Notes: generated by a model from the letters alone, not told the origin. DNA of 64,000 bases from Candidatus Altiarchaeales archaeon (GCA_014727915.1 WJMO01000006.1:130137-194136), one strand, 5' to 3'. Counted from the stretch's first letter, positions 3,647-64,000 are shown. Numbers and translations are program-made.

Positions 3647-3793
3647 AGCCTCAGGCGAGAATTGAACTCGCGACCTTTGCCTGTTTGGGACCTTACGGAT
3701 TTTATGCTTCTTTCTTTCCGTGGACGCTTTCTTTCTTCGCGAGAAAGAAAGGGCCCTACCAAGGCAACGCTCTACCGACTGAGCTACTGAGGC
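3647..3793 (-). tRNA. tRNA-Thr (anticodon GGU) with ~74-nt intron at canonical 37/38 position
   Basis: Minus strand reads GCCTCAG-TA-GCTC-AGTCGGTA-GAGC-G-TTGCC-TTGGTA[intron]A-GGCAA-AGGTC-GCGAG-TTCAATT-CTCGC-CTGAGGC-T; all four stems pair; intron contains perfect hairpin CTTTCTTTCTCGCGAAGAAAGAAAG. Confidence 0.65.
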
Positions 3794-34458: not shown

Positions 34459-34998
34459 TTACCCTACGCCAAGGTCCAACTCCACCATTATCTTATGGGA
34501 TTGGTCAAGTGGCAGTATCAGGTTGGGGTATTCCCCGAAGAAGTCCCGCGCCTCAGAGGTTGTTAGCTGCTCCCGGAGCCTTTCCGCGTGTTCGAGTATC
34601 TCCTCCTTAGTCCTCTTCTCCAGGCTGGGACAGTACTCCAGGGAATCAAGTGTAAGGTAGGCCTTACCATCCTTTTTCATGACGAAGAAGGGCCATAGAC
34701 GACACCAGAAGGGCCCGACCTCGTATACCCTGCACTTCACTCCGTCTGTGAAGGGGCAGATATAGTGGCCGTTCTCCATGATCTTGAACGTGACCCTGTG
34801 GGTGTTCTCAGACTCCCTCTTGAACAGGCCCTCGGAGAAGCCCAACGCCAAGGCAGCCTCGTATTCCTCGTCTGTGAAGACCGGAAAGAACGAGGGGTAG
34901 TGGGGGCTGAACCTGCAACAGGGATCAGTGCAGGCGAAACAATCCTCGGAGGAAGTCAGCATATCAAGGTCTGGTATTTTCATCTTTTCAAACCTCAC
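34459..34998 (-). CDS. YkgJ-family CxxCxxCC putative Fe-S/zinc-binding protein
   Basis: CFACTDPCC motif near N-terminus; additional conserved Cys. Confidence 0.6.
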   Translation of the reverse strand: MRFEKMKIPDLDMLTSSEDCFACTDPCCRFSPHYPSFFPVFTDEEYEAALALGFSEGLFKRESENTHRVTFKIMENGHYICPFTDGVKCRVYEVGPFWCRLWPFFVMKKDGKAYLTLDSLEYCPSLEKRTKEEILEHAERLREQLTTSEARDFFGEYPNLILPLDQSHKIMVELDLGVG

Positions 34999-35989: not shown

Positions 35990-36080
35990 CAAAACAACCC
36001 CAAATACATAATATATATATTTTATGTCGGAAAGATATATAAATGATTCAACATATATATAATCGCTCCTGTGCATTAAA

Positions 36081-36266
36081 TTGGGAAGTCTAAAAGTGGG
36101 ACCGGAAAAAATTGTTGAAAACGCAAACGTGGGTGGCAATATGAATGGATACTGTTACATACCATACCAGTGCAAACATTTCGAAAAAAAGGACGGAAAA
36201 CGATGCGAGTGCAGACACTCCATATACGGAGACTGCTTCAACCCCCAGATGATGAAGGAGGACTGA
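36081..36266 (+). CDS. Small Cys-rich protein, hypothetical
   Basis: Likely real start at internal Met (MNGYCYIPYQC...CEC...C). Confidence 0.3.
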   Translation: MGSLKVGPEKIVENANVGGNMNGYCYIPYQCKHFEKKDGKRCECRHSIYGDCFNPQMMKED

Positions 36267-36270
36267 CAGC

Positions 36271-36579
36271 ATGGACGCCATAGTGCTATACGACCAGGAC
36301 GGAAAAAGAGCATCAGAAATCTCAACATACCTGGCAGAAAAAGACAAAAAACACACTATAGCGGAGACGATAGTCGAGTGCAAGGAAAGGATAAAAGGTC
36401 ATGGTAGGGGATTCCTGATGATCGGCGAATTCGACGGAGCAGAGGACATAAAAGGTCTTGCCGAGATCATACGGGAGGAGAACATCACGCCAGTGTTCTT
36501 CGACCTCTTCGACCCCGAAGAGAAAGACTACATGAACAGACTTCAAGAATATATCAACGTCAAGACACCCCAAGGGTAG
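36271..36579 (+). CDS. Hypothetical protein, weak receiver-domain-like pattern
   Basis: 102 aa, alternating beta/alpha pattern with acidic pocket-like residues; not a canonical response regulator. Confidence 0.35.
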   Translation: MDAIVLYDQDGKRASEISTYLAEKDKKHTIAETIVECKERIKGHGRGFLMIGEFDGAEDIKGLAEIIREENITPVFFDLFDPEEKDYMNRLQEYINVKTPQG

Positions 36580-36640
36580 GGAACCGATGTGGCTGCCCTG
36601 TTTTGAGGGTGGTCAGGCTTTTAGGGCAGCCACATCAAAA

Positions 36641-37864
36641 TCACCGATCACTGAATACGTCCTTCAGGTACATCACCCAGACGGCATATGCCATGAAGAG
36701 AGGATAGTATTCGAGTAAGGTGAAGGGATACTTCAGCCCGGAGCTGAAGATGGGTATGACGAAATACGTCGCCATCACCAGGAAGTTGTAGTGCCTAACA
36801 TACTTGGGTCGGCGGAGTATGAAATAAGTAGCCGGCAACAGGAGTATGTATGAGTAGTCCTTGAACCTTGGCATAACCAGCGCGAACGCAACCGTCGACA
36901 GGAAGAGAATCATTCTGCGCCAGTCAGAGGCAGAAGAAGACCTAAGCACCATAAAAGCCTTCAAGGTCAGCAAGAGCACCGTCAGAGAAGTGAGAAGATA
37001 GATGATCTGCCATAGGATGCCCGGAGTAAATATGCCATACTCGTATCTGAGGATGTCTGACAAGTCCCCCAGGAGCTCTGGCATGCAGGGGTTCAAAACC
37101 CCCCGCTCATTGGGTATCGACACAGACAGATTAGCGCTGTTGACGTATGAATCGAACTGGGAAGGGCTTGCAAGATAGGAAAAAACGAGATAGAGCGAGA
37201 AAACAAAGGCTGAACGCAGGAAGACACGGTATCTTGCATTATCGCCAACCAACAGAACCAAGCCCAAGAAGACTATCAGGTTCAGCTTGAAAGACGAAGC
37301 AGCCAGCACGAACAGAGAGAAAAGACTGTGCCTGCCCCTAAGGAGGAAGTAGAAGCCAGACCACAGGAAAGCCTGCTCAAAAACAGAGATATTGCCCCCT
37401 ATAAGGTCCCTTATGAGAGTCATGTTATAGGCAAGCAGGCAGGCCCCATAGTAGAAAACGTCCACATCCCGTTTAAGGAAGAAATCACGCCATGAAGAGA
37501 GGAGGACCCCGACGAGCAGCAGCTTAACACCTAGGAAGACATGCTGTGCCAAGCCATATTCAAAGAATGAGAATGGCTTGAAAAAATATACGGTCAGCGG
37601 AGGATAAACGTATGTGTTGATCGGATAAGGCGCGATTTCAAGTAGAGTCTCAGAATCGTAAAGCCCAACGCCCATCGAGTGCATCTTGGCTGTGTAGTAG
37701 TAGACAGGAAAATCCCACTGTAGGTCTGCAAGGCCCGAATACATAAAAAAAGACCATAGCAAGACCAGAAGTACGGGTATGAGGGCCACAGACTCCAAAC
37801 GACCATAGGGCAGATCCTGCCTTCGATTTTCCATGTTATAGCAGTTGGAACACGGGCCAGACAC
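36641..37864 (-). CDS. Polytopic membrane protein, putative GT-C-like glycosyltransferase; paralog of 12204..13391
   Basis: 407 aa; conserved blocks shared with 12204..13391. Confidence 0.55.
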   Translation of the reverse strand: MSGPCSNCYNMENRRQDLPYGRLESVALIPVLLVLLWSFFMYSGLADLQWDFPVYYYTAKMHSMGVGLYDSETLLEIAPYPINTYVYPPLTVYFFKPFSFFEYGLAQHVFLGVKLLLVGVLLSSWRDFFLKRDVDVFYYGACLLAYNMTLIRDLIGGNISVFEQAFLWSGFYFLLRGRHSLFSLFVLAASSFKLNLIVFLGLVLLVGDNARYRVFLRSAFVFSLYLVFSYLASPSQFDSYVNSANLSVSIPNERGVLNPCMPELLGDLSDILRYEYGIFTPGILWQIIYLLTSLTVLLLTLKAFMVLRSSSASDWRRMILFLSTVAFALVMPRFKDYSYILLLPATYFILRRPKYVRHYNFLVMATYFVIPIFSSGLKYPFTLLEYYPLFMAYAVWVMYLKDVFSDR

Positions 37865-38862: not shown

Positions 38863-39627
38863 TCATCTGCTGTGCTTTCTCTTAAGTTGGCCTACCGTGT
38901 ATTCCGCGAGTTTCTCCAGGTTCACCGTGTCATCGCGGTTGTACTTCACCAGAAGGTCGAGTGCTTTCTCGCCCTTCACTTTTTTGCCTGCGACTTCCAC
39001 CGTTCGATCGTTCTCGTAGGCCTTCCACAGCCGCACAGCATCGTATCCCGTCACGCCGTCCGTGTCCCTTGACATGCCCAGCCGGGATTCGATCCTCTTA
39101 AGGCCGCCGCTGAAGCCGAGGGACCTCAGGGGATACATGAGATCAAGGTGAATCTGCTTGAAACTTATGTCCAATGCGTGGGTGAGGAATGGAAGGTCAA
39201 ACCTCATTCCGTTGAATGAGACTATGTATTTGAAATCCTGCAAGTCCTTCTTCAGCTCCCCCAGGTTATCCCCTGACACATAGCTTTTGGTCTCCCTGCC
39301 GCTGTGCACGCAGACGGTTGTCACCTCGTCATAGACAGGTGACAGTCCGGTTGTCTCGATGTCGATGTAGCAGGCGTGGTCCCTGAACGCGTTATACGCC
39401 CTCCACGTCAGAGGCTTGGGCAGGCGTTCCCTGAAGTAGTGGTGGTCGAGGGCGTCGAGGCGTGCGATGCTCTCCAGACAGGCTGCCCTGAGACGCTTGC
39501 AGATGGGCGCCGGCAGTTCAACCTCTTTTTTCGCCAGATGCCTCCAGCTTTTGACACCCCTCTCCCAGAGCATCCTCTCCGTCTTCTCCCCGACCCCGGG
39601 GATATGCTGGAATGTGGACTCGATCAT
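38863..39627 (-). CDS. RNase H-like (DEDD-type) predicted exonuclease
   Basis: N-terminal HhH-like region; YIDIETTGL exonuclease motif. Confidence 0.6.
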   Translation of the reverse strand: MIESTFQHIPGVGEKTERMLWERGVKSWRHLAKKEVELPAPICKRLRAACLESIARLDALDHHYFRERLPKPLTWRAYNAFRDHACYIDIETTGLSPVYDEVTTVCVHSGRETKSYVSGDNLGELKKDLQDFKYIVSFNGMRFDLPFLTHALDISFKQIHLDLMYPLRSLGFSGGLKRIESRLGMSRDTDGVTGYDAVRLWKAYENDRTVEVAGKKVKGEKALDLLVKYNRDDTVNLEKLAEYTVGQLKRKHSR

Positions 39628-52848: not shown

Positions 52849-54531
52849 TTACTTCTTCTTACGCCTCTTGTAGAGCTTGTAACCGCCAACAACCACAACC
52901 AAGACTATAACTGCCTTCATTAACAGGGCTGCCAGCCCAGAACCAGAATTCCTATTTGAAGAGCCCGTGAAAGAGGACATCGCAGTTGAAGAACCACCCC
53001 CAAGGTTGAAGGTTTCCACCTGGGTGACTCTCTCACCGTTCAATCCAGCATACTCCAACGTCAAAGTGAACGGGCCGGACACGGTAGTGTCGAAGGTGAA
53101 GGTCGTCTGCTTCGTAGGCTTGATGTCCGACTTGTAGGAGACAATCTCCTGGCTTCCGGTTTGAGCGTATGCGGAAGTCCCACTATCAGACGTTGATTGC
53201 CTGGCACCTCCGCTGGGCCGGACCATACCCCTGCCAGACAACATGGACACCGGATTAGACTGCCTCTGGCTCGCCCTGTTTTCCCAGGCCTCATCCGTGG
53301 ACTGGGTGCTACGGTCAAACGTCCGGTTACCCAGGTCCGACGTCTTTACAGTGGCCTTGACTCCCTCCGCAGCCCGGGTGCCAATGTTAGCGACTTCTAT
53401 GCGGAGCGAACCACGCTCCTGATCGACGTTTATCACCTCCAATATGACCTGCCCCGACACATCCAATCCGATGCTCTTCTCATCCGTGTACGAAGTGCCC
53501 CCGACCGTATAGTCTATCGTCAAGGGTATCGCATAGGTTTGAATCTCAGCATCCCATGAGATGGATATCTCAAACTCTGTCTGCACATCCTCGCCGGACT
53601 CGACCGTGCCTATGTGCTTCTCCGCAGTGTCAACTGGGACGAAAGGCTCGGACAGTGTCAGGCTTGCCGTGACATCATCAGCGGCCGCAGCCCCATAGTT
53701 CTTCAAACCCATCTTCAATTCTACCGTCTCTCCCGGACCTGTCGGCTCGTAGCTGACGTTCAAAACCTTGAAGTCAATGCCCGCACTCTCAACGTTCAAG
53801 CCGAAGGACATGTTTCTGGAGGCTGAAGTGCCGGACTCGTCCGTGTAGTCTATCTTCAAAGAGACCATGCACGCCCCCTCAGCAGAAGGCTTTATCTGGT
53901 AGCCCAATGTGAAATCATCGCCTTCCTCAATGTCTCCTATGTACTTTCTGGATGAGCCTATAACGGTGAGGCAGTCAGACGATAGCGTGGCTTCCAGGTC
54001 CTCCACCGAGGAGCGCAACGTACCTTCCAGGACCAGGTCTCCGAGCGTGTCCTTATAGTATGTGGTCTTCTCCGGGTTCAACTGGAAGAGTGGGTTACCG
54101 TATATCCGCAGGGGCACGTCCCATGTGGTGAGCAGGTTGTTCACCGAAGTCCCATCGTATTTGAAACCGTCATATGATATGCGAACGTTAATCGCTGTCA
54201 AACCCGTCTTCGCTCCCTCCTTTACCCTCACAACTACGGGCACGGTCTTGGACTGCTCCGGGTCGACCCTGCCTATGTAGAATTTCTTGTCGACACTCAC
54301 GACACCAGTGCTTGGAATGTATACTTCAACGTCGTCAGCGCGAAACCCGCCAGTGTTCTCAATGGCAAGGTTGAGTATGCCACTGTCACCAGGCCTGAGA
54401 TTAGAGTCATAGTATGTCGAGTCGAAGTCAACGACCACGTTAGTTGGTGAGGTCGTGCCTGCAGTAGCAGCCAAGACACCATCTGAAAAAATGCAAAGGA
54501 ACACCATCAACAACAAAATCCTTTTCACCAT
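52849..54531 (-). CDS. Secreted surface-layer-like beta-repeat protein with C-terminal TM anchor (partner of FtsX/ABC pair)
   Basis: Signal peptide; repeated beta-rich modules; C-terminal TM + KKRRKK stop-transfer. Confidence 0.65.
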   Translation of the reverse strand: MVKRILLLMVFLCIFSDGVLAATAGTTSPTNVVVDFDSTYYDSNLRPGDSGILNLAIENTGGFRADDVEVYIPSTGVVSVDKKFYIGRVDPEQSKTVPVVVRVKEGAKTGLTAINVRISYDGFKYDGTSVNNLLTTWDVPLRIYGNPLFQLNPEKTTYYKDTLGDLVLEGTLRSSVEDLEATLSSDCLTVIGSSRKYIGDIEEGDDFTLGYQIKPSAEGACMVSLKIDYTDESGTSASRNMSFGLNVESAGIDFKVLNVSYEPTGPGETVELKMGLKNYGAAAADDVTASLTLSEPFVPVDTAEKHIGTVESGEDVQTEFEISISWDAEIQTYAIPLTIDYTVGGTSYTDEKSIGLDVSGQVILEVINVDQERGSLRIEVANIGTRAAEGVKATVKTSDLGNRTFDRSTQSTDEAWENRASQRQSNPVSMLSGRGMVRPSGGARQSTSDSGTSAYAQTGSQEIVSYKSDIKPTKQTTFTFDTTVSGPFTLTLEYAGLNGERVTQVETFNLGGGSSTAMSSFTGSSNRNSGSGLAALLMKAVIVLVVVVGGYKLYKRRKKK

Positions 54532-54586
54532 ATTTTTTCACCTTATTATCCTGAATATCAAGAATACACATCCTTAAATATAATAC

Positions 54587-54636
54587 TGAAACAGGGGATA
54601 TCCCAGCGTGAAACACCTGTAGCAGAATGTGAAACA
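54587..54636 (+). promoter_or_regulatory. Triple TGAAACA direct-repeat array (R1), upstream of surface-protein/ABC operon
   Basis: TGAAACA at 54587, 54609, 54630 (spacing 22, 21); TATA-like ttaaatataat adjacent. Confidence 0.55.
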
Positions 54637-54701
54637 TGGGTTTGGGAGGCTTCCCGGGTCGGATTAGAGTGGGAAGCCTCCGTTGTGGTGGCTGCAGTGA
54701 G

Positions 54702-55211
54702 CTATTGTTTAGTTCCTGCCGGTTGGCCTTCTGCAAAAGGGCATCCACCGCCCCGCATACCCCTACCAGGAAATCCACCCCCCATCTTCCCGGGGCATTT
54801 ATCCGGGTTCTCCTGGCAGTAGGCATGGTGGGCCTCCATTATCTCCTCGTGTGTGGCGTCCTCGCCGAGGCCGAGCTTGGATAGCATCTCACTGTGCCTT
54901 TCCTCCATCTCCTGGTGGCGTTCCTCCATACGGGCCTTCACTGCAATATGGAACTCCCCTATCGTATCGTCCTCGGTCAGGCCGAGGTCGGATAGTCTCT
55001 TCTCCCACATGGCTTCTCTTATCTCTTCTCTCGTAGCATCTTCCGTAAGCCCGAGCTCCTCCAGGTTCACAGGCTCATGTCCTTTCATAAACCCGTGTCT
55101 GGAGAATCCCTTGCTTCCCCCTGCCGCTTCCGTTGCGTTGACGGCCACCACCAGTCCTAGGACCAGCAGTGCTGCCAAGCCAGCGGCAAACAGTTTGGTT
55201 TTACCATCCAC
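54702..55211 (-). CDS. Secreted protein with three LGLTED(A/D)T..EEI repeats and Gly-rich tail
   Basis: Signal peptide; GTG start preceded by GAGGTGA. Confidence 0.5.
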   Translation of the reverse strand: MDGKTKLFAAGLAALLVLGLVVAVNATEAAGGSKGFSRHGFMKGHEPVNLEELGLTEDATREEIREAMWEKRLSDLGLTEDDTIGEFHIAVKARMEERHQEMEERHSEMLSKLGLGEDATHEEIMEAHHAYCQENPDKCPGKMGGGFPGRGMRGGGCPFAEGQPAGTKQ

Positions 55212-55239
55212 TTTGGTTCACCTCGAAGGATTCATTGGA

Positions 55240-55289
55240 TGAAACAGGGCATAAGTTTGGATGAAACAGTTGTGGCAGAAGATGAAACA
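55240..55289 (+). promoter_or_regulatory. Triple TGAAACA direct-repeat array (R2)
   Basis: TGAAACA at 55240, 55262, 55283 (spacing 22, 21), 30-80 nt upstream of GTG 55211. Confidence 0.55.
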
Positions 55290-55294
55290 TGACT

Positions 55295-55705
55295 TTAAAG
55301 CTTCAGCTTGACGAGGTTGGTGTTTCCCAGGGGCTTCTTCTCAACGACACCCCGTTGCTCCAGCTTGGACAGGACCCTTGAGACCTTCACCTTGGATATT
55401 CCGGTCTCTGCAACGAGGTACATCTGCTCCATCTTGCCCTCCTTCAACAGCACCTCTATTATCTTCCGCTCCTCAGCGGGCAATACCTTCAGCATCGAGT
55501 AGGCCTGCCTCTGGGTCACCTTCCACTGGAACATTAGTATTATCAGAGCTCCAACACCCATGGAGACAGCTGTCACCCCGTAGACCACCACAGGCATGGA
55601 CGAGCCGGTGTCTTCAATGTAGGACCCGTTAAGTATGGACAGTAGTATCCCCAAGCCGAACACTGACGTTAATGCTATCGCTAACCGCTTCTCCGAGACT
55701 TCCAT
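55295..55705 (-). CDS. Two-TM membrane-anchored wHTH regulator (paralog family)
   Basis: Two TM helices then wHTH (ETGISKVKVSRVLSKLEQRGVVEKK). Confidence 0.55.
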   Translation of the reverse strand: MEVSEKRLAIALTSVFGLGILLSILNGSYIEDTGSSMPVVVYGVTAVSMGVGALIILMFQWKVTQRQAYSMLKVLPAEERKIIEVLLKEGKMEQMYLVAETGISKVKVSRVLSKLEQRGVVEKKPLGNTNLVKLKL

Positions 55706-55708
55706 CTT

Positions 55709-55987
55709 CTATCCGCCTATGTCCTCCTTCATCTCAAGGTATGTTTTCTTGTCTATCTCCCCTGACACATACCGTTTCTTCAGCACGTCCAATGGTGTTT
55801 CAACCCTGCGGGAGCCGCGTACAAGCCACCAGAATATGAGGGCAACGACCACCACTATGACGAGATTCCACACCATGAAGGTCGGAACCAATCCGAATAT
55901 GGGCTCACGACCCAGGAAAGGATGCGGCGCCCTGCATGTGGAGAACATTGCGGCCCTGCCGCCGAACTCGGCAAAAGTCTGGTTCAT
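55709..55987 (-). CDS. SHOCT-domain small membrane protein
   Basis: TM helix followed by LKKRYVSGEIDKKTYLEMKEDI; real start may be an internal Met. Confidence 0.45.
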   Translation of the reverse strand: MNQTFAEFGGRAAMFSTCRAPHPFLGREPIFGLVPTFMVWNLVIVVVVALIFWWLVRGSRRVETPLDVLKKRYVSGEIDKKTYLEMKEDIGG

Positions 55988-56023
55988 AAGAATATCACCT
56001 CAGTACTATACAACTAATAAGAA

Positions 56024-56073
56024 TAAAAAAGGGTGAAACAGGCGATATCCAGGGTTGAAACAGCCGTATCAAA
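56024..56073 (+). promoter_or_regulatory. Triple TGAAACA direct-repeat array (R3), divergent intergenic region
   Basis: TGAAACA at 56024, 56046, 56067 (spacing 22, 21); first unit plus GATATCC flank near-identical to R1. Confidence 0.55.
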
Positions 56074-56135
56074 AAATGAAACACTGATAGGTTTTTATAG
56101 ATTTGCAGTCAAATAAGAAGGCGTGGAGGTCACAT

Positions 56136-56924
56136 ATGGACTTCATAGTATTATCGGTTTCGGGTTTTTTGATAGGGGCTTTAGGCACGATAATAGGCTC
56201 GGGAGGGGGTTTTCTTGTAGTCCCACTGCTTCTCCTGCTAACCGACCTCTCACCCCAGGTTATCGCGGGGACCTCCTTGACAGTGGCTTTGTTCACATCC
56301 CTGTCGGGTTTTGTCGCATATCACAGGCAGAGGAAGATCGACTACCTTGTCGCGGGAGTATTTGTCCTAGCTCTGATACCGGCGACTTTCATCGGCGTGG
56401 AAGTAAACCAGAGGATAGAAGCGGACCAGTTCAGGATGATACTGGGGGTCCTGCTGGTGATGATCTCAACCCTGCTATTCAAGAGGGTCAACATCCGGAT
56501 ACCGCATTATATCCCCTACCCCATCCACTATGACCGGGAGAAGACGGACAGCCAGGGAGTCACATACAAGTATCACGTGAGCATGAGGAGGGGGGCGCTC
56601 ATGAGCTTCGTTATCGGGGTGGTCTCGCCGGTTGTGGGCATCGGCGGAGGAGTCCTCAGGACGCCTGCGATGGTCGTTTTGGAAGGCATGCCAGCCCGTA
56701 TCGCAGCGCCAACAAGCCAGGTAACGACGATATTCGGGGGTGCGATTGCAGTGGCGTTGTTCGCCATGAAATCCCAGATCAACATATCATATGCCATACC
56801 GCTTATAGTGGGGGTGATAGTGGGGGCGCAGGTTGGAGCCCTATTCTCAGAGAGATACGGGCTTATGGTCCGGAAGATTACCTCAGCCGCCCTTTTCATA
56901 ACTGGGCTCTGGCTGCTGCTGTAG
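56136..56924 (+). CDS. TauE/SafE-family (DUF81) anion exporter
   Basis: Two repeated halves each with Gly-rich motif; start probably ATG 56136. Confidence 0.7.
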   Translation: MDFIVLSVSGFLIGALGTIIGSGGGFLVVPLLLLLTDLSPQVIAGTSLTVALFTSLSGFVAYHRQRKIDYLVAGVFVLALIPATFIGVEVNQRIEADQFRMILGVLLVMISTLLFKRVNIRIPHYIPYPIHYDREKTDSQGVTYKYHVSMRRGALMSFVIGVVSPVVGIGGGVLRTPAMVVLEGMPARIAAPTSQVTTIFGGAIAVALFAMKSQINISYAIPLIVGVIVGAQVGALFSERYGLMVRKITSAALFITGLWLLL

Positions 56925-56966
56925 GCTAGTGCTTTTTTTCGTGGGGTTGCATAATTATCCTCCAAG

Positions 56967-57659
56967 ATGAAAGCCTATAGGATTTTTTATCTCTCGGTTT
57001 TGGCTGTGGTGTTAGCTGCTGCCCTGCCGTCAATATTTAACCATGCCCTGTGGCTCATGGGAGGGGAGGGCCTGCCGAACATAATAGCCGGCAGGTGGGA
57101 TCTGGTGGCTTTGAACGTGGCCTTCTTCACCTTCTTCCTCCTGCTCACAACCTACAAGAGGCATGTCAACTGGCGTTCCCGTAACATCTACACCGCCTTC
57201 ATAGTCGCGTTGTTCGCGGAGATGTACGGGTTCCCGTTGACCGCGTATTTCATCGCAAACCGGTTCGGGGTCGTGGACGTGGACTACCGACCCGCATACA
57301 ATCTGACCTTCGATTTCCTGGGCGTCTGGTTCACCTTGCCCACGATGATGATCGCCGGCGCTGCGGTCACCGTATTCGGCCTCGCATTGATAGCGGCGGG
57401 GTGGTATCAGGTGTACAAGAGCGGGGGCGGGGTAGTCACCACCGGCTTGTACAGGTACTCCCGGCACCCCCAGTATGTGGGCATACTATTGGTCACCTTC
57501 GGGTGGATAATACACTGGCCCACGATCCCGACACTTGCCATGTGGCCGGTGCTGGCGGTTGTCTACTACCGGCTGGCGAGGGAGGAGGAGGCGTGGGTCG
57601 AGAAACAAAACCCCAGAGAATTCAAGGAATACCGAGAAAAAACGCCCATGTTCATCTAG
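56967..57659 (+). CDS. ICMT/PEMT-family membrane methyltransferase
   Basis: Multi-TM with C-terminal GLYRYSRHPQYVG and EE..L motif. Confidence 0.7.
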   Translation: MKAYRIFYLSVLAVVLAAALPSIFNHALWLMGGEGLPNIIAGRWDLVALNVAFFTFFLLLTTYKRHVNWRSRNIYTAFIVALFAEMYGFPLTAYFIANRFGVVDVDYRPAYNLTFDFLGVWFTLPTMMIAGAAVTVFGLALIAAGWYQVYKSGGGVVTTGLYRYSRHPQYVGILLVTFGWIIHWPTIPTLAMWPVLAVVYYRLAREEEAWVEKQNPREFKEYREKTPMFI

Positions 57660-57920
57660 GCTATTTGATTTTGTGGATGCTGTTGTCGAGGGTGTATAGC
57701 TGGGCGAACCCGGGCTTCACATCCAACAACGCGATGCACGCGTTCTTCTGCTTTATGCCCTCCGCCCCCTCCAAGGGACAACCCTCCTAAAAGAGAAATA
57801 CACCGGATTCAGACTCTTCGCAGCAGCACTGATCACAACCGGAACAATCCTGATATCCATAGCCAACTAAAAAAAAAACAGAATAATTTGAACAAAAATA
57901 CAAACAATTTATAAAATTTA

Positions 57921-58007
57921 GCCCCCGGAGCAGCCACCAACCACAACCAACAATAAGAGCCAAATAGCATATGTGCTGGTTTTAGGCTAAAAAAGGCGTT
58001 AGGGACC
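57921..58007 (+). repeat. Direct repeat A flanking hicBA cassette
   Basis: gcccccggagcagccaccaaccacaaccaa...gagccaaatagca...gttagggacc; imperfect copy at 58749-58877. Confidence 0.6.
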
Positions 58008-58069
58008 AATAAATCAAAGGTTTAACATTCTTAAATAGTATTTAATTATCTTACATTCTTATATCTTTT

Positions 58070-58303
58070 ATGATGAAAAAAACTCAATTTCCCCTTGTTA
58101 TTGAAAAAGATGAGGATGGGTTCTATGTTGTAGAATGCCCAGTGTTGGAGGGGTGTTATTCTCAGGGTAAAACCTTGGATGAGGCGATGAAGAATATTCG
58201 GGAAGTCATTGAGATCTGTCTTGAGGAATCGTCCACTAAAGATTTTCTGAAAAACTATCACCCAGTAGAGTTTAGCTTCCATACTATTACTGTTGGTTCA
58301 TGA
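58070..58303 (+). CDS. hicB: HicB-family antitoxin (UPF0150-like)
   Basis: FPLVIEKDEDGFYVVECPVLEGCYSQGKTLDEAMKNIREVIE typical of HicB N-domain. Confidence 0.7.
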   Translation: MMKKTQFPLVIEKDEDGFYVVECPVLEGCYSQGKTLDEAMKNIREVIEICLEESSTKDFLKNYHPVEFSFHTITVGS

Positions 58304-58527
58304 TGGCATCGAAGCTGCCCATCGTTTCTGGCAAACAAGCAGTCAAAGCGTTCAACAAACTTGGTTATGCTGTTATTAGAAGGAGGAGTAGCCATATTCG
58401 CCTGGAACATGAAAGTAAGAAAAAGATAACAATCCCAGACCACAAAACACTAGGAAAAGGAATACTAAGAAAACTAATCCGCGATGCTGAGATAACAATA
58501 GAAGAATTCAACAAATTACTAAAGTAA
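58300..58527 (+). CDS. hicA: HicA-family toxin (YcfA-like)
   Basis: 75 aa; SGKQAVKAFNKLGYAVIRRRSSHIRLEH pattern; start overlaps hicB stop. Confidence 0.7.
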   Translation: MMASKLPIVSGKQAVKAFNKLGYAVIRRRSSHIRLEHESKKKITIPDHKTLGKGILRKLIRDAEITIEEFNKLLK

Positions 58528-58748
58528 AATTTTCACCCCAATTCTTTAAAGGAGTTCAACACCCCCCAAATCAACGAATCCTCATCCGACTCAATGAAGC
58601 TCTCGAAGCGATCGAAAAGGAAGCCAACAAATTCTTCGTGCAATTGTCCAAGAACAAGCAGTTCAGAACTTGGCTGGAGAAGACGTTCACAGCCCCGAAG
58701 ATCGAGGCGGGGTTGAGTTTGCCCTTTTTTTCGGTTGCCGGTTTCGAA

Positions 58749-58877
58749 GCCCCAGGAGCAACCACCAACCCACAACCAAGAAAAAGAGCCAAATAGCAAA
58801 TCAGCTAGAATTAAGCTAAACCCGTCGAAACTACCAACACACAACCAAGAACAGAAGCCAACAGCGTGTTAGGGTCC
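58749..58877 (+). repeat. Direct repeat B flanking hicBA cassette (with internal partial duplication)
   Basis: gccccaggagcaaccaccaacccacaaccaag...gagccaaatagca...gttagggtcc. Confidence 0.6.
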
Positions 58878-58885
58878 TTTTTCTG

Positions 58886-59722
58886 CTATGTTTTTTTGAA
58901 TTTAAGGTGTATTATCTCTGGTTGGGCGAAGAATCTTATAGGTAGTCCTGTCACTCCTACTCCATTTGTTATTATGACTTTTGTGTGTTCTGTTTCCACG
59001 ATGCCACTTATGTATTTTTCACCGTAGTCGCTTGTCTTGTAGGGGGTCCATAAACCGAAGAAAGTGACCTGTCCACCGTGTGTGTGCCCTGCTAACATAA
59101 GGTCTATTTTGTCTGTTTTAATCTCTTCTGCGTAGTCTGGATTGTGTGAGATAAGGATTACAAAGTCCTCTTCTGAAACATTCTCTATTGTTGGTTGTAT
59201 GTCCTGTGTGTCTTCCCATATGTCTCCGACGCCACCTACCCTAATCTTGTTCCCATTATCTGTAATCCATTCACCCTGGTTGTCGACGAGCGTTATATCG
59301 GCCTCCTCTAGGGCTTTCCTTGCTTGTTCTGCATCAGCCCAATGTTCATGATTGCCTAACACACCATAGACTCCCAGAGGTGCATGGAGGTCTTTTAATT
59401 CTCCTATGCAGGGGTCAATGTATTTTATGTCATCGTAGATGTAGTCGCCACCCAACAAAATAATATCTGGTTCGAGGTCGTTAATCATCCCTATTATGTC
59501 TCTTGTCCTCTCAACTGACAACAGGGGACCGCAGTGTATGTCAGCCACGAAAACAGCAGTCTTACCATTAAACGAACTGGGAACATCCTCGTCAACAATA
59601 TCTATCTCATTAACTCGAATAAGATATGCCTCAATGAACGAATAGGCAAAACATAAAAGAAACACCATTCCCATACCGACTAGTATCCTTTTCCACCGCA
59701 TCTCAAACCATATAACCCCCAA
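58886..59722 (-). CDS. Calcineurin-like metallophosphoesterase
   Basis: N-terminal TM; motifs GDYIYDD, GNHEHW, GHTHGGQ. Confidence 0.75.
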   Translation of the reverse strand: MGVIWFEMRWKRILVGMGMVFLLCFAYSFIEAYLIRVNEIDIVDEDVPSSFNGKTAVFVADIHCGPLLSVERTRDIIGMINDLEPDIILLGGDYIYDDIKYIDPCIGELKDLHAPLGVYGVLGNHEHWADAEQARKALEEADITLVDNQGEWITDNGNKIRVGGVGDIWEDTQDIQPTIENVSEEDFVILISHNPDYAEEIKTDKIDLMLAGHTHGGQVTFFGLWTPYKTSDYGEKYISGIVETEHTKVIITNGVGVTGLPIRFFAQPEIIHLKFKKT

Positions 59723-59953
59723 TCAATAAATATTTCTGGATTTCACTCTAACAACAAACAGATATATGGCTCTAAAGGTCCATCTCCCCATCAAAAGGCT
59801 ATATTGCACCAGAACAAACAGGTGAGCTACAAGAACAAACAGGGTAGGGTGTTGTCTTGTCTTGTGAAGTCTCCTTGGCCTGTTTGGGCTGAATATTGGT
59901 TTTTATCCTGTCTTGTATGCTAGGATGATGGTTCCTTGATCCTTGCCTGTATT

Positions 59954-60415
59954 TTAAGGAATAATCTCGTTGTGGATGTAACTATGAGCAGCTAAGGAAT
60001 ATGCCCCACTAATGGCATGGACCATTACACAAGCTATCAGTGAGACTAATGAAAAGATAAAATTGAAAATAAAAACTGGGATTATTATTCGGTTACGTCT
60101 TGAATTAACTTTTTTCTCTAGATAGACATGTATGCTGGAAAAACCAATCCCATAACAGATCGGGTTAATTATCAGAAAAATTTGTTCAATCATTCCCTGC
60201 ATTAAATTCATGTTCTGTGCATCTGAGAGTAGATTGAATACTGGTTTGGTAAATGTAAGGATGATATTTCCAGCTGAGAATATGCTCTGTCCTGCAATAA
60301 TAAAAATTAGTAGATAGAACATAATCTGCAAGACAATAATAAAAAAAGCAATTAGGGCCGACTTTATCCATTTGTTTTCTTGTGAAAAAATCTTGCGCCT
60401 TAAGTTACCTAGCAT
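59954..60415 (-). CDS. Membrane protein, hypothetical (AT-rich gene)
   Basis: 153 aa, 4 predicted TM helices; low GC. Confidence 0.4.
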   Translation of the reverse strand: MLGNLRRKIFSQENKWIKSALIAFFIIVLQIMFYLLIFIIAGQSIFSAGNIILTFTKPVFNLLSDAQNMNLMQGMIEQIFLIINPICYGIGFSSIHVYLEKKVNSRRNRIIIPVFIFNFIFSLVSLIACVMVHAISGAYSLAAHSYIHNEIIP

Positions 60416-60439
60416 TTTAGCCTATATCGAGTTCCTTTT

Positions 60440-63400
60440 TTATTCGAAGTTTAGTACTCCGTCCCGCAATTTGAATGTTCCGTTGTCTAGTTCTATTTTG
60501 GAGTCTGCGATTGATACTGTCAGTTCCCTTGCAGTGAATGTTGATTCTATCACTCTCATTGTGCCGTTGACGTAGATGTCGTCTACTGTACAAGTGTTGT
60601 CTGAGGTAACATTCCAGTCTCCGTATTCGGGGCATGATTCTCCACTGCATCCTGCTTCGAGTTGGATGGTTATGTTGATTGCTTCGCTGGTTGAGTATAT
60701 GCCCTCTGTTGTCTCTATTTCTATAGTGAATTCGTAGCTGTTGCCGGATGTCCCTGTTGCGTTGACACTCCAGCTGGGACTGCATGATTGCCCGTATGTC
60801 AGTGGTCCACAGTCGTAGGGGTTTTGGCTGGTTGTGTAGAATGGTGTTCCACTATTCATCGGGATTGCTCCTTTTCCTATGGTGACCGCTGTGCTGTTTA
60901 CTGCGGTCCCGTTCATGTATTCGTCTCCTGGCGTGATTTCGCATATTATGCCATCTCCTATTGTGTAGTTGGAGTATTCCAGCGTATTGCTTGTTTCATC
61001 GCTTATCACTTCACCGTTTTTGAACCAGCGGTAATGGGCAGTTGGCGTGTCATCGTCATCCCCTAGTCCCAGGTGGTTGCATTCCAGGTTCTCGCTGTAC
61101 GGTGGCGAGGAGGGCAGTATGTATGCAAGAGTGACATAGGGTTTGCATCCTCCTCCGCTAACGCAAGATGATGTGCAGGTCACTTCTGTGTCGTTCCATG
61201 TTCCATCCCCTCCCCCTATGCATGTCCTGTAGCTTTGTCCGTCGCAGTAACGGTAGTTTTGGCTGTACTGGCTGCCGTCGTGTACGCACCCGTCTGATAG
61301 GCTTGAGCAGAATTCCCCGCTGTCGTCATAGTCGTCCGGGTAGCAGTAACCTCCACTACAGACATCATCTGGGTCGCTGCCTTCCTGTTCCTTGTCTTCA
61401 CAGTCTCCGCCATCAGATACTTGTGTTAGGCAGTCTCCGTCTTTGTTGCAGTATTCTCCTGCTGAACAGTTACTGTGCATTACACACCCGATCGTGTATT
61501 CAAGATAAATGTCTTCTGGAAGCCATTGCACTTCGTTCAGTTTAGGATCTGGCTCCCCTGGTGGTCCATCACAGTCTGTTTCTGATTCGACGTCTAGATG
61601 CAGCTTAAATCCTATTATACTCTTGTTTTCGTTTAAGTAACTGTCTTGCACTTCTGTTAGTATGTCTTCGTCAAGGCTGCAGTCACAATCATGCCATGAT
61701 CCGTCATCCCAGCTCATATCACAGATGGTCGCTATTTCAGTTGAGCCTATGCCTTTATCGTCGCATGATAGGCCTCCAAAATCTTCATCTAGAATGTTTA
61801 TTGTTAGTTCGTCTCCACTATTGCCTGAACCTATTGCAGAGCAGTCTCCACTGGAACTTCCTTTTAGCCTCATTGTTTTGACGTCTAAGGTGGCGTTTTC
61901 GATGATCTCTGAGATGTTGTATGTCCACCATCCCATGGAAAAATCCCCGTATTCCAGTGCGCTGCCTGTTGCTCTTATAAGATTGTCTCTTAAGTCGCTT
62001 CCACTGCAGTTGTTTTTATCGCAGCTTTGGAAATCTAGTTCTTCTACATCGTTGTATTCTTGAAGGGGTTTAATAGTCGGGTCTATGATGATGGGATATT
62101 CTGCTTCCAATAGCCATTTTTTCGGGAGATTCAATCGTAGGATCGTATCTCCCAACTCTTTGTAGATTGTATATGATGTGTCGAGTTTTTCACTGTGGTT
62201 GTCTGTGATGAACGGCCTCTGTATTGTGAAATACGATAATTCCACTGGTATTCTGCCTTGTTGTTTCTTTAGTTTGAATGGAATATCTTCTTCAACGAGT
62301 TTTTCACTGCCATCCCAGTTTATACCATTGACAATCGGGGTTAAGTGCTCTGGATAATCAAGGATATATGTTATTTCAAAGTCCTGTGTTGAAGATGCAA
62401 AGAGATTTGAAGAGTCTACAATGATGGATTCCTTTAGCAAATCGTCTGTTAGTTCATACTTGATGTCAACACCTTCACCAAGAATATTCGCATAAAATGG
62501 TTCGTCGTTAAACATGGATAAGCTGTTTGAATCATAGAATAATTTTTGATTAGTGGTTGGCTTTATTTTAAAGGATAGTGTTGTGTCTAATGCTGTGAAA
62601 TCAACGGTCTTATCCATGTGGAATACTGCACTATAGTGTTTTTTCTCGTATTTAATGTCCTCTTCGGCTGAAACCAGGGTGGTTGTGGTTGTTGAGGTGT
62701 CCATTGTTGTAGTGGTTAGTTCAATTAGGGTGGTGGTTGTAGTTTCAATTGTCGTGGTTGTGGTCTCTGCTGGGAGGGTTGTAGTGGTTGAGGATGGTTG
62801 GAGTGTGATAGTTGTTGTGGTATCTAATAATGGAATGGTGGTGGTTGTCTCACTCGTGGAGGTAGTTGAGGATGTGCTTGTTGTGCTTACCAGGATTTTG
62901 CTTTCATCCTGTGTTGATGAGGCCAGATCTGGATCCAGGATTACGGTAACATTACCACAGTCGTCTACCAGGCATGTCACGTTCACGGTAAAATCAAAGA
63001 ACTGATTTTGGTAAACTATTTCAGAAGATACCAAAGGATCAAGAATAGATATATCTACTTTTGGAAGTGCAAGGACCGTGTAATTGAATACTGCTACGTT
63101 GTTGGTTTCGTCCAGTTCTTCGACAGAGTCTTTGCTGTCTGCTATCACGTATACATGGTTGGTTCCTGTGTTGTTTGTGACGTTCCATGTTAAATCAACA
63201 AGATAATCTTCTCCAACGTCAAGCAGGCCCATTGATGAATTATATATTTCTTCTGCTCCGGTGGGTGTTGCTACTATAATGCTTATTTCCGCGCTTGAGG
63301 TAGTTGATGCTAGTGTCCCGTCATTTGTGACCGATGCGTTTATAGTGATGATCTGGTTTTCATAGAGGTTCTGTGGCGTGACATTCAAGGTTGAGTTGAA

Positions 63401-64000
63401 GTCGGGCATATCCGCACCGATTGCCGTGAAAATTGTGTTATGATCAATGAGCGCCCATACGTATTTATTGATGGTATCGACTCCAGTTATTGCTTCTTCA
63501 AGCCATTCTGAAGCGGTTTCATTCCACCAGTGAATTTTTAGAGTTTCTTCTGGAACGGTTAATGCACTGGAATTATAGGGGATTTTCAACAAGAAATAAT
63601 TGAATGATCCACTGATCTCAACATTCACATATTTACCTATGCTACTGTTATCACCGCCAGTTGGAGCAGAGATTATATCAAATCCTGAGAAATATGCAAG
63701 GGAATCCAAACTGTTTAGGATTCCAAGTATGCCCTCTGTTTCGTTAGTTGGTGGTTCTGGTTTTACTAGTATTGTTGCATAAGCCTGGTTATTTGCTTCA
63801 TCAGTTTCTTCAATATCATCTTGGGAGTCTATTTCTACAAATATTGTATGGTTATTTGCATCGGGGATATTCCATGATACGCCAACTTGTTTACTTCCTC
63901 CTGCTTCGACAACATCCGCAATGCTTGAACCTATGTATACTCCTCCATCACTTATGTTACCATCATAAAAACTAACATTAACGTCATATGCATTGCTACT
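60440..64000 (-). CDS. Giant surface protein (partial, N-terminus beyond window): CARDB-like repeats, ~90-aa poly-Thr linker, Cys-rich C-terminal domains
   Basis: Reading frame stays open upstream of track start (TTG 63709) to the window edge; DETNN-type motifs (ELDETNNVAVFNYTV; ETDEANNQAYATILV). Confidence 0.65.
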   Translation of the reverse strand, partial: SSNAYDVNVSFYDGNISDGGVYIGSSIADVVEAGGSKQVGVSWNIPDANNHTIFVEIDSQDDIEETDEANNQAYATILVKPEPPTNETEGILGILNSLDSLAYFSGFDIISAPTGGDNSSIGKYVNVEISGSFNYFLLKIPYNSSALTVPEETLKIHWWNETASEWLEEAITGVDTINKYVWALIDHNTIFTAIGADMPDFNSTLNVTPQNLYENQIITINASVTNDGTLASTTSSAEISIIVATPTGAEEIYNSSMGLLDVGEDYLVDLTWNVTNNTGTNHVYVIADSKDSVEELDETNNVAVFNYTVLALPKVDISILDPLVSSEIVYQNQFFDFTVNVTCLVDDCGNVTVILDPDLASSTQDESKILVSTTSTSSTTSTSETTTTIPLLDTTTTITLQPSSTTTTLPAETTTTTIETTTTTLIELTTTTMDTSTTTTTLVSAEEDIKYEKKHYSAVFHMDKTVDFTALDTTLSFKIKPTTNQKLFYDSNSLSMFNDEPFYANILGEGVDIKYELTDDLLKESIIVDSSNLFASSTQDFEITYILDYPEHLTPIVNGINWDGSEKLVEEDIPFKLKKQQGRIPVELSYFTIQRPFITDNHSEKLDTSYTIYKELGDTILRLNLPKKWLLEAEYPIIIDPTIKPLQEYNDVEELDFQSCDKNNCSGSDLRDNLIRATGSALEYGDFSMGWWTYNISEIIENATLDVKTMRLKGSSSGDCSAIGSGNSGDELTINILDEDFGGLSCDDKGIGSTEIATICDMSWDDGSWHDCDCSLDEDILTEVQDSYLNENKSIIGFKLHLDVESETDCDGPPGEPDPKLNEVQWLPEDIYLEYTIGCVMHSNCSAGEYCNKDGDCLTQVSDGGDCEDKEQEGSDPDDVCSGGYCYPDDYDDSGEFCSSLSDGCVHDGSQYSQNYRYCDGQSYRTCIGGGDGTWNDTEVTCTSSCVSGGGCKPYVTLAYILPSSPPYSENLECNHLGLGDDDDTPTAHYRWFKNGEVISDETSNTLEYSNYTIGDGIICEITPGDEYMNGTAVNSTAVTIGKGAIPMNSGTPFYTTSQNPYDCGPLTYGQSCSPSWSVNATGTSGNSYEFTIEIETTEGIYSTSEAINITIQLEAGCSGESCPEYGDWNVTSDNTCTVDDIYVNGTMRVIESTFTARELTVSIADSKIELDNGTFKLRDGVLNFE

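What the first reader, a model, noticed from the sequence alone, without database searches (positions are those of the whole stretch)
57660..64000. AT-rich island with giant CARDB-type surface protein continuing past the window edge
From about 57.7 kb the sequence is visibly more AT-rich than the rest of the window. It holds hicBA, a metallophosphoesterase, a membrane protein and a surface protein of more than 1180 aa with a ~90-aa poly-Thr linker. The composition shift suggests horizontal acquisition.
Basis: partly seen in the sequence, partly recalled or inferred. Interest (0 to 1): 0.5.

Follow-up and report, generated by a model that had tools for sequence, protein, structure and literature searches.

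The report
Low-GC surface-protein island in an Altiarchaeales genome
The last 6 kb of this archaeal (Altiarchaeales) window really is much more AT-rich than the rest and carries a toxin-antitoxin pair plus a giant, probably sugar-binding surface protein; it is most likely foreign DNA, which makes it an ordinary kind of variable cell-surface island rather than a new type of system.

Summary
GC falls from 0.538 (1-57660) to 0.421 (57661-64000). All five island genes have GC3 of 0.35-0.43, against 0.70 +/- 0.04 for 49 core genes.

The gene list is correct: hicB/hicA, a membrane-anchored metallophosphoesterase, an orphan membrane protein, and a surface-protein ORF still open after 1186 codons. CARDB covers only about 15% of that protein. 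It is a mosaic of CARDB x2, a Thr-rich stalk of about 75 aa, a galactose-mutarotase-like supersandwich, a DNRLRE/CBM96-like domain, a domain with about 14 conserved Cys, and an Ig-like domain.

The host is a GC-rich Candidatus Altiarchaeales MAG. Relatives of the giant protein's modules lie on 37-49% GC contigs, one of them from another Altiarchaeales MAG. The nearest relatives of the phosphoesterase are GC-rich housekeeping-context genes.

Foreign origin is the best explanation (about 0.6). It is not proven: the window holds no integrase, no adjacent tRNA and no right border, no donor was identified, and an assembly chimera is not excluded. This is a new member of a known kind, of modest interest.

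The parts
57660..57919 (.). Transition spacer after the last GC-rich gene (PEMT/ICMT-like, 56967-57659). The maximum-likelihood GC change point is at 57787 (support 57766-57871). No credible ORF.
57920..58012 (+). Left copy of a direct repeat that brackets hicBA. The 73-nt core, 57920-57991, is about 83% identical to the right copy.
58070..58303 (+). hicB antitoxin, 77 aa. Contains the HicB_lk_antitox / UPF0150 fold only; no DNA-binding domain was detected. GC3 0.397. Identical to NCBI MBD3388381.1 / MBD3416445.1.
58300..58527 (+). hicA toxin, 75 aa from 58300 (NCBI start 58303, 74 aa). Overlaps the hicB stop codon. GC3 0.368. Identical to MBD3388382.1 / MBD3416446.1.
58528..58747 (.). 220-nt stretch between hicA and the right repeat, with no start-to-stop gene. 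Possibly a gene remnant.
58748..58880 (+). Right copy of the direct repeat, with an internal partial re-duplication at 58829-58861. It ends 6 nt before the phosphoesterase stop codon.
58886..59722 (-). Metallophosphoesterase with an N-terminal hydrophobic segment (read from the translation), YaeI/LpxG-like. 278 aa from the TTG start; the NCBI start at 59701 gives 271 aa. GC3 0.434.
59954..60415 (-). Orphan 153-aa polytopic membrane protein, starting 24 nt downstream of the giant ORF's stop. GC3 0.351. No family match and no relatives found.
60440..64000 (-). 3' part (1186 codons plus stop) of the giant surface-protein gene. The N-terminus lies beyond the window. 31 N-x-S/T sequons, acidic composition, and no C-terminal TM or PGF-CTERM anchor.
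63731..64000 (-). aa 1-90: CARDB domain, cut by the window edge.
63086..63406 (-). aa 199-305: second CARDB domain (the best Pfam stretch).
62678..62905 (-). aa ~366-441: Thr/Ser-rich linker, a presumed O-glycosylated stalk. It causes the local GC-skew peak.
62066..62659 (-). aa 448-645: galactose-mutarotase-like beta-supersandwich ending in the invariant YPxxIDPT motif.
61556..62053 (-). aa ~650-815: DNRLRE/CBM96-like beta-sandwich. Remote similarity only, and the AF2 model has low confidence here.
61136..61498 (-). aa 835-955: Cys-rich domain with about 14 cysteines invariant across the family.
60866..61138 (-). aa 955-1045: Ig-like domain. The same unit is repeated up to about 30 times in giant bacterial surface proteins.

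Best explanation
The window is chromosome of a GC-rich (about 54%) Candidatus Altiarchaeales archaeon. From about 57.8 kb to the window edge it carries the first 6.2 kb of a low-GC (about 42%) variable cell-surface segment. That segment most likely entered by lateral transfer or recombination from a lower-GC archaeon, plausibly another member of the Altiarchaeota, whose published genomes span 32-48% GC.

The cargo has three parts:
- A very large secreted, heavily glycosylated mosaic protein. CARDB domains and a Thr-rich stalk hold out a supersandwich + DNRLRE/CBM96-like + Cys-rich + Ig-like head. I infer that this head binds polysaccharide or glycan ligands and acts as an adhesin or decoy-type surface protein. 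No catalytic domain was found.
- A small membrane protein, tightly linked and probably co-transcribed, followed by a membrane-anchored YaeI/LpxG-like phosphodiesterase.
- A HicB-HicA toxin-antitoxin pair at the edge, bracketed by direct repeats. I infer that it acts as an addiction or stabilising module.

Shown: the compositional break, the gene content, the domain homologies and the host identity. Inferred: the transfer itself, the donor, glycan binding, co-transcription and any anti-virus or adhesion role.
For: Composition.
- GC is 0.421 against 0.538, with a change point at 57787.
- GC3 is 0.35-0.43 in all five genes against 0.702 +/- 0.040 in the core (z -6.6 to -8.7). Signature distance is 0.067 against at most 0.049 within the core.
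- The native CARDB/NPCBM_assoc surface protein at 52849-54531 has GC3 0.654, so low GC is not a general property of surface-protein genes here.

Host.
- The PEMT-like, HicB, HicA and phosphoesterase proteins are 100% identical to proteins of a 'Candidatus Altiarchaeales archaeon' MAG on a 536,761-nt contig.
- Other core genes are archaeal: Nre and eRF1/Pelota-type.

Affinities of the cargo.
- The nearest phosphoesterase homologues (64% identity) lie next to ribosomal protein L37ae and Pcc1 on 60% GC contigs, with GC3 0.77. Two Altiarchaeota copies (53-54%) have GC3 0.59-0.76.
- Relatives of the giant protein's modules lie on a 43.5% GC contig (L007) and on a 37-49% GC contig of Altiarchaeales RBin_358 (L008 = P0340).
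- There are no paralogues of island proteins in the 57.6 kb of core.

Neighbourhood.
- The genes around PEMT are not conserved in relatives.
- Published Altiarchaeales genomes span 32-48% GC (PMC4975002).

Function of the giant protein.
- CARDB scores 55 bits against a cutoff of 22.7.
- Its central module (aa 448-955, 'module M' in the full report) belongs to a conserved family.
- hhalign gives 98.5% and 95.8% probability to proteins carrying Disaggr_repeat and CBM96 domains.
Against: - The window contains no integrase, transposase, conjugation or viral hallmark gene. The only tRNA is at 3647-3793.
- The direct repeats bracket only hicBA, not the island.
- The right border and the protein's N-terminus are outside the window, and the source contig could not be retrieved.
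- No close donor sequence was found. The giant protein's best matches are 27-35% identical, and the membrane protein is an orphan.
- The island shares the core's unusual preference for ATA (Ile) and AGR (Arg) codons. That fits a related donor, but it equally fits a native origin.
- The DNRLRE/CBM96 assignment fails direct HMM tests on the window protein, and the AF2 model is of low confidence in that sub-domain.
Confidence: 0.6

Rival explanations
1. Assembly or binning chimera. The contig joins a GC-rich Altiarchaeales population to DNA of a co-occurring lower-GC organism (possibly another Altiarchaeales) at about 57.8 kb. The 'island' would then be an artefact of MAG reconstruction.
For: - The source is a MAG.
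- GC never returns to core level inside the window.
- The junction lies in non-coding DNA with no mobility gene or att-like border.
- Relatives of the giant protein occur in a low-GC Altiarchaeales MAG whose locus-tag prefix (GF334) is close to this MAG's (GF416), suggesting the same submission batch.
Against: - Two NCBI accession series (MBD3388375-383 and MBD3416439-448) carry identical proteins in the same consecutive order across the junction, PEMT -> HicB -> HicA -> phosphoesterase. The number of CDS between HicA and the phosphoesterase differs between them, which hints at two separately annotated records. Their independence is unknown.
- The contig is 536 kb long.
- The island shares the core's ATA-Ile and AGR-Arg preferences.
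Confidence: 0.15
2. Native region with locally deviant composition. The genes are vertically inherited and AT-rich for another reason, such as the amino-acid bias of surface proteins, low expression, or fast evolution under diversifying selection.
For: - The giant protein is rich in Thr, Ser, Asn, Ile and Asp.
- The island keeps the host-like ATA-Ile and AGR-Arg usage.
- Several Altiarchaeota genomes encode phosphoesterases of this family and giant CARDB proteins.
Against: - The shift is at third codon positions (0.42 against 0.70) and is equally strong in hicB, hicA, the phosphoesterase and the membrane protein.
- The native CARDB protein has GC3 0.654.
- A giant CARDB protein in another GC-rich archaeal genome (L006) has GC3 0.707, matching its neighbours.
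- The phosphoesterase's orthologue-like relatives have GC3 0.59-0.77.
Confidence: 0.1
3. Remnant of an integrated virus or plasmid. This is a special case of horizontal acquisition, in which hicBA and the giant protein are accessory or host-recognition genes of a mobile element.
For: - HicA and HicB match PHROG 'moron' families.
- The N-terminal supersandwich of module M has 13 relatives on IMG/VR contigs. One is in an ORF whose C-terminal part matches a tail-terminator PHROG, and another is fused to RHS repeats.
- Viruses of Altiarchaeum are known (PMC8324899, listed).
Against: - There is no capsid, terminase, portal, integrase or replication gene in the 6.3 kb seen.
- The giant protein and the membrane protein have no PHROG match.
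- The repeat is absent from IMG/VR.
- IMG/VR contigs often include host DNA, so those matches are weak evidence.
Confidence: 0.1

Closest known systems
Cell-wall-associated / 'metagenomic' flexible genomic islands (for example GI1 of Haloquadratum walsbyi, PMC4535781; Salinibacter ruber islands, PMC2800850)
   Same: A chromosomal segment of atypical composition. It is dominated by very large, Thr-rich, glycosylated cell-surface proteins and envelope genes, is poorly conserved between relatives, and has mobile-element-type passengers at its edges.
   Different: Population-level variability (under-recruitment of metagenome reads) was not tested. Only one edge and 6 kb are visible. The GC3 gap here is about 0.28. 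No S-layer or glycosyltransferase genes are seen in the part inside the window.
HicAB type II toxin-antitoxin systems
   Same: Both Pfam domains score above their cutoffs. The genes are adjacent and overlap by 1-4 nt. Both proteins are small (75-77 aa).
   Different: The gene order is antitoxin first. HicB is only 77 aa and has no recognisable RHH/HTH DNA-binding domain. The pair is bracketed by about 73-95-nt direct repeats.
CARDB-domain archaeal surface proteins
   Same: Two CARDB domains, an acidic Asn/Thr/Ser-rich composition with many N-glycosylation sequons, and a Thr-rich stalk.
   Different: Most of the protein is not CARDB. It has no PGF-CTERM or other C-terminal anchor, and its other modules are unannotated families.
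DNRLRE / CBM96 carbohydrate-binding modules and the supersandwich domains of polysaccharide lyases and glycosidases (PMC9971899; PDB 8wab, 9o3q)
   Same: Fold-level and profile-level similarity in module M, and the same order of domains as in proteins that carry Pfam CBM96 or Disaggr_repeat.
   Different: There is no direct HMM match, and no lyase or hydrolase catalytic domain is attached. The module is followed by a domain of about 120 aa with about 14 conserved Cys that has no named family.
Hamus (grappling-hook) subunit of Ca. Altiarchaeum hamiconexum (PMC4460559)
   Same: A large, beta-rich, glycosylated surface protein from the same archaeal order.
   Different: The hamus subunit is about 97 kDa with an S_layer_N-type N-terminus and no CARDB domain. 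No sequence relation was detected here, and the N-terminus of this protein is unseen.

Membership tests
Horizontally acquired genomic island | Composition and codon usage deviate significantly from the host core | tested here: met
   GC 0.421 against 0.538. GC3 z = -6.6 to -8.7. Signature distance 0.067 against a within-core maximum of 0.049.
Horizontally acquired genomic island | Mobility genes present (integrase, transposase, conjugation or viral genes) | tested here: not met
   None found in 57660-64000 by Pfam, NCBIfam or PHROGs. The rest of the island is outside the window.
Horizontally acquired genomic island | Insertion next to a tRNA/tmRNA gene, with flanking direct repeats | tested here: not met
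   The only tRNA is at 3647-3793. The direct repeats bracket hicBA only. The right border was not seen.
Horizontally acquired genomic island | Absent from the syntenic site in close relatives | tested here: inconclusive
   In two relatives (PEMT 69-74% identical) the genes downstream of PEMT are unrelated to the island. However, the genes on both sides of PEMT also differ between relatives, so there is no clean empty site.
HicAB type II toxin-antitoxin | HicA toxin domain and HicB antitoxin domain encoded by adjacent genes | tested here: met
   HicA_toxin 54.9 bits (cutoff 27). HicB_lk_antitox 44.8 bits (cutoff 27). The genes overlap at 58300-58303.
HicAB type II toxin-antitoxin | HicB carries a C-terminal DNA-binding domain for autoregulation | tested here: not met
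   HicB is 77 aa and matches only profile positions 1-50 of 123. No RHH/HTH hit.
CARDB-domain surface protein | Pfam CARDB (PF07705) above the gathering score | tested here: met
   55.4 bits against 22.7, two stretches, the best at aa 199-303.
PGF-CTERM / archaeosortase-anchored surface protein | C-terminal PGF motif plus a hydrophobic helix | tested here: not met
   The protein ends ...FKLRDGVLNFE* with no hydrophobic tail. No NCBIfam match.
DNRLRE / CBM96 carbohydrate-binding module | Match to the family HMM (PF24517 / NF033679) | tested here: not met
   No hit for the window protein. 1 of 15 family members hits NF033679, at E = 0.0016.
DNRLRE / CBM96 carbohydrate-binding module | Same fold and same position in the domain architecture | tested here: inconclusive
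Hamus subunit (Altiarchaeum grappling hook) | S_layer_N-like N-terminal region and about 97 kDa size (PMC4460559) | not testable with these tools
   The N-terminus is beyond the window. No S_layer_N match in the 1186 aa seen.
YaeI / LpxG phosphodiesterase equivalogs | Score above the NCBIfam equivalog cutoff | tested here: not met
   PRK11340 scores 114.5 bits against 188, and LpxG 100.3 against 350. The Pfam Metallophos domain is met, 50.2 against 21.5.

The most novel reading that the evidence does not exclude
The segment could be one allele of an exchangeable cell-surface cassette that moves between Altiarchaeales lineages of very different GC content. Its giant protein would then be the founding example of an uncharacterised archaeal adhesin class: CARDB stalk, then mutarotase-like supersandwich, DNRLRE-like lectin domain and a domain with about 14 conserved Cys. 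Such a protein could mediate attachment, biofilm formation or virus/symbiont recognition in GC-rich Altiarchaeales relatives for which no hami (grappling-hook appendages) have been reported. The repeat-bracketed hicBA would be a separately mobile mini-cassette.
Probability: 0.15. Interest if true: 0.55.

Novelty: new member of a known kind. Interest (0 to 1): 0.3.

Why it matters
Altiarchaeales are abundant subsurface carbon fixers with an unusual double membrane and unique surface appendages, and they are targeted by viruses and by episymbionts. Variable surface-protein islands are where such interactions are decided. A documented foreign, low-GC surface cassette in a GC-rich member would show that envelope genes are exchanged across lineages with very different base composition. 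It would also give a concrete candidate, module M, for glycan-binding tests. On its own, though, this is the expected kind of flexible island and changes no current view.

Tried and rejected
**Retrieving the source contig.** I wanted to see beyond 64000. Exact-protein look-ups of the membrane protein, PEMT, HicA and P0007 found nothing on record. Exact 44-mer scans of genome contigs and metagenome contigs found nothing.

**Truncated native gene at the junction.** The 57661-57900 minus-strand translation has no similarity to the CBS-domain gene that follows PEMT in relative L001.

**The repeat as an RNA or a mobile-element end.** It shows no significant fold on either strand. It has no further copies in the window, in fetched loci or in IMG/VR. 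Rfam finds nothing in the island.

**Conserved 'giant protein - membrane protein - phosphoesterase' module.** The membrane protein has no relatives in JGI metagenome contigs. The phosphoesterase's relatives sit in unrelated contexts.

**A native phosphoesterase paralogue in the core.** I looked near the Cu-ATPase cluster, as in relative L003. None exists in the window.

**Other checks.**
- There are no tandem repeats in the gene.
- The first attempt at search for related loci with the 15-sequence alignment failed for lack of a conserved stretch.
- The hamus link could not be tested, because the N-terminus is outside the window and no hamus sequence was available; no supporting evidence was found.


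Full report
**1. The observation**

- A 1-kb GC profile of the window stays at 0.46-0.60 up to 58 kb, then drops to 0.40-0.48 for the last six bins.
- Overall GC is 0.5377 for 1-57660 and 0.4205 for 57661-64000. None of the 6.34-kb windows inside the core falls below 0.506.
- A single-change-point likelihood fit puts the break after 57787, with support 57766-57871 and 2*deltaLL = 325.
- The shift sits at synonymous sites. 49 core ORFs have GC3 = 0.702 +/- 0.040. The five island genes have 0.35-0.43 (z -6.6 to -8.7).
- The symmetrised dinucleotide signature of the island is 0.067 from the core. Equal-sized core chunks are 0.027 +/- 0.008 from it, with a maximum of 0.049.
- Island codons end preferentially in A. 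The island still shares the host's unusual preference for ATA (Ile) and AGA/AGG (Arg).

**2. Gene content**

| Gene | Coordinates | Notes |
|---|---|---|
| hicB | 58070-58303 (+) | HicB_lk_antitox, 44.8 bits |
| hicA | 58300-58527 (+) | HicA_toxin, 54.9 bits; overlaps the hicB stop |
| Metallophosphoesterase | 58886-59722 (-) | Pfam Metallophos; YaeI/LpxG-like but below the equivalog cutoffs; hydrophobic N-terminal segment (read from the translation) |
| Membrane protein | 59954-60415 (-) | 153 aa, no family |
| Giant ORF | 60440-64000 (-) | 1186 codons, open to the window edge |

- The membrane-protein gene starts 24 nt after the giant ORF's stop, so the two are probably co-transcribed (inference).
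- The Thr/Ser-rich linker is about 75 aa (aa 366-441), not about 90 aa.
- The giant protein has 31 N-x-S/T sequons and no C-terminal anchor.

**3. Host**

- The PEMT/ICMT-like protein just left of the break, and HicB, HicA and the phosphoesterase to its right, are 100% identical to proteins of a 'Candidatus Altiarchaeales archaeon' MAG on a 536,761-nt contig.
- The rest of the window is ordinary archaeal chromosome: Nre, an eRF1/Pelota-type protein, a Cu-ATPase, DsbD and ABC transporters.
- The contig itself could not be retrieved. The right border of the AT-rich segment and the N-terminus of the giant protein therefore remain unseen.

**4. What the giant protein is**

- The word-indexed search found only six relatives.
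- The exhaustive search found 1327 at E <= 1e-3. These resolve into separate modules:
  - aa 1-360: CARDB, a roughly 100-aa middle domain, CARDB, and a small beta domain. This block recurs in other proteins (for example P0001, 28% identity). In P0296 it is fused to a type I phosphodiesterase.
  - aa 448-955, which I call 'module M'. It defines a family of 560-740-aa secreted proteins with an invariant YPxxIDPT motif and about 14 invariant cysteines (A2). One member, P0340, comes from another Altiarchaeales MAG, RBin_358.
  - aa 955-1100: one copy of an Ig-like unit that giant bacterial proteins repeat up to about 30 times (Myxococcota 'MopE-related protein', Rhodobacterales). AlphaFold gives pLDDT above 90 for the Ig-like part, and Foldseek returns generic Ig/FnIII/PKD folds.
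- The AlphaFold model of module M has pLDDT 72.8. It is high for aa 1-200 and 380-515 of the module and low in between.
- Profile comparison supports the same reading. The family's N-domain matches, at 98.5% probability, a protein on an IMG/VR contig in which a Disaggr_repeat domain follows. It matches at 95.8% probability a protein in which the aligned downstream part is Pfam CBM96.
- Direct HMM tests for CBM96/DNRLRE fail on the window protein. Only 1 of 15 family members hits, at E = 0.0016. I treat the lectin-like assignment as probable but unproven.
- No catalytic domain was found.
- The most likely function is a stalked, glycosylated, glycan-binding surface or secreted adhesin (inference). 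CBM96 is described as an alginate-specific CBM (PMC9971899).

**5. Is it foreign?**

Evidence for a foreign origin:
- The synonymous-site shift affects five functionally unrelated genes.
- A native CARDB/NPCBM_assoc surface protein 3 kb upstream has normal GC3, 0.654. A giant CARDB protein in another GC-rich archaeal genome (L006) likewise matches its neighbours, at 0.707. Low GC is therefore not inherent to such genes.
- The closest phosphoesterase homologues (64% identity) sit beside ribosomal protein L37ae and Pcc1 on 60% GC contigs with GC3 0.77. Two Altiarchaeota copies (53-54% identity) have GC3 0.59 and 0.76. The copy here has evidently spent a long time in an AT-rich genome.
- The module relatives whose DNA I could read lie on 43.5% GC (L007) and 37-49% GC (L008, Altiarchaeales) contigs. 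Published Altiarchaeales genomes span 32-48% GC (PMC4975002). A lower-GC relative is therefore a plausible donor.
- There are no paralogues of island genes in the core.
- The genes around PEMT are not conserved in relatives.
- A toxin-antitoxin pair sits at the edge.

Evidence against, or missing:
- No integrase, transposase or viral gene, and no adjacent tRNA.
- The repeats bracket only hicBA.
- No donor was identified.
- The right border is unseen.

**6. Rival explanations**

- **Assembly chimera (about 0.15).** This is the main alternative, because the source is a MAG and GC never returns to core level in the window.
  - Partly against it, two NCBI accession series carry identical proteins in the same consecutive order across the junction: MBD3388375-377, 380-383 and MBD3416439-441, 444-446, 448.
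  - There is one extra CDS between HicA and the phosphoesterase in the second series.
  - Reading consecutive accession numbers as gene adjacency rests on my knowledge of how NCBI numbers proteins along a record. Whether the two records are independent assemblies is unknown.
- **Native but compositionally deviant region (about 0.1).** The GC3 evidence and the internal controls contradict it.
- **Virus or plasmid remnant (about 0.1).** This is a sub-case of transfer. Its only support is the PHROG 'moron' matches of HicAB and the relatives of module M's N-domain on IMG/VR contigs.

**7. Comparison with what is known**

- The closest described phenomenon is the cell-wall-associated flexible or 'metagenomic' island. 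An example is GI1 of Haloquadratum walsbyi, with its variable, Thr-rich, glycosylated surface proteins and mobile-element passengers (PMC4535781; PMC2800850).
- What is the same: atypical composition, giant glycosylated surface proteins, poor conservation between relatives, and mobile-type passengers at the edge.
- What is untested: population-level variability.
- The hamus (grappling-hook) subunit of Ca. Altiarchaeum hamiconexum is a 97-kDa protein with an S_layer_N-like N-terminus and no CARDB domain (PMC4460559; PMC4975002). Nothing links it to this protein, although the N-terminus here is missing.

**8. Verdict**

- The interpretation of horizontal acquisition is the best-supported reading (about 0.6), but it rests on composition plus indirect affinities.
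- The feature is a new member of a known kind and of modest interest (0.3).
- The most novel reading not excluded is an exchangeable surface cassette encoding a new archaeal glycan-binding adhesin class. I give it about 0.15.

Noticed in passing
window 57920-58012 and 58748-58880: A direct repeat of about 73-95 nt (83% identical over the core) brackets the hicBA pair plus 220 nt of non-coding DNA. The right copy contains a partial internal re-duplication (58829-58861) and ends 6 nt before the phosphoesterase stop codon. The repeat is unique in the window, has no predicted RNA structure, and is not found in IMG/VR. It may mark hicBA as a separately inserted mini-cassette.
   Followed up: partly
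window 52849-59722 (protein accessions): Every protein checked across the GC junction carries two NCBI accessions, in two parallel consecutive series (MBD3388375-383 and MBD3416439-448; locus tags GF416_04800 onward). The second series has one extra CDS between HicA and the phosphoesterase. The same gene order therefore exists in two deposited records. Whether these are independent assemblies is unknown.
   Followed up: partly
window 34988-37864: A milder AT-rich patch (GC 0.46-0.47, GC3 about 0.62) holds a PhoU/MazE-domain protein and a GT87-family glycosyltransferase. It may be an older, partly ameliorated acquisition or simply local variation.
   Followed up: no
window 3647-3793 (-): Rfam finds a full-length tRNA match (58.4 bits) spread over 147 nt. 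That implies an intron of about 75 nt. ARAGORN reported no tRNA anywhere in the window.
   Followed up: no
window 38863-39627 vs 56967-57659; L001; contig of P0008: In two Altiarchaeota relatives the RNase_H_2-family gene lies immediately upstream of the PEMT/ICMT-like gene. In the window the two genes are 17 kb apart, and the genes downstream of PEMT differ in every genome examined. This neighbourhood is a rearrangement hot spot.
   Followed up: partly
L009, L011, L015, L017 (IMG/VR contigs): The supersandwich domain that ends in YPxxIDPT also heads large proteins on putative viral contigs. There it is fused to Disaggr_repeat, CBM96, F5/8 type C or RHS-repeat regions, and in one ORF to a C-terminal part matching a tail-terminator PHROG. 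It looks like a widespread, unnamed N-terminal module of glycan-targeting proteins.
   Followed up: partly
L004 / L005: The closest homologues of the island phosphoesterase (64% identity) lie directly downstream of ribosomal protein L37ae and Pcc1 (KEOPS) on 60% GC archaeal contigs. That is a housekeeping context quite unlike the one in the window.
   Followed up: partly
window 57796-57870 (+): A short reading frame ends in ...KYTGFRLFAAALITTGTILISIAN*, which resembles a C-terminal membrane-anchor or sorting tail. No gene lies upstream of it. It may be a remnant of a disrupted surface-protein gene at the junction, or chance.
   Followed up: no
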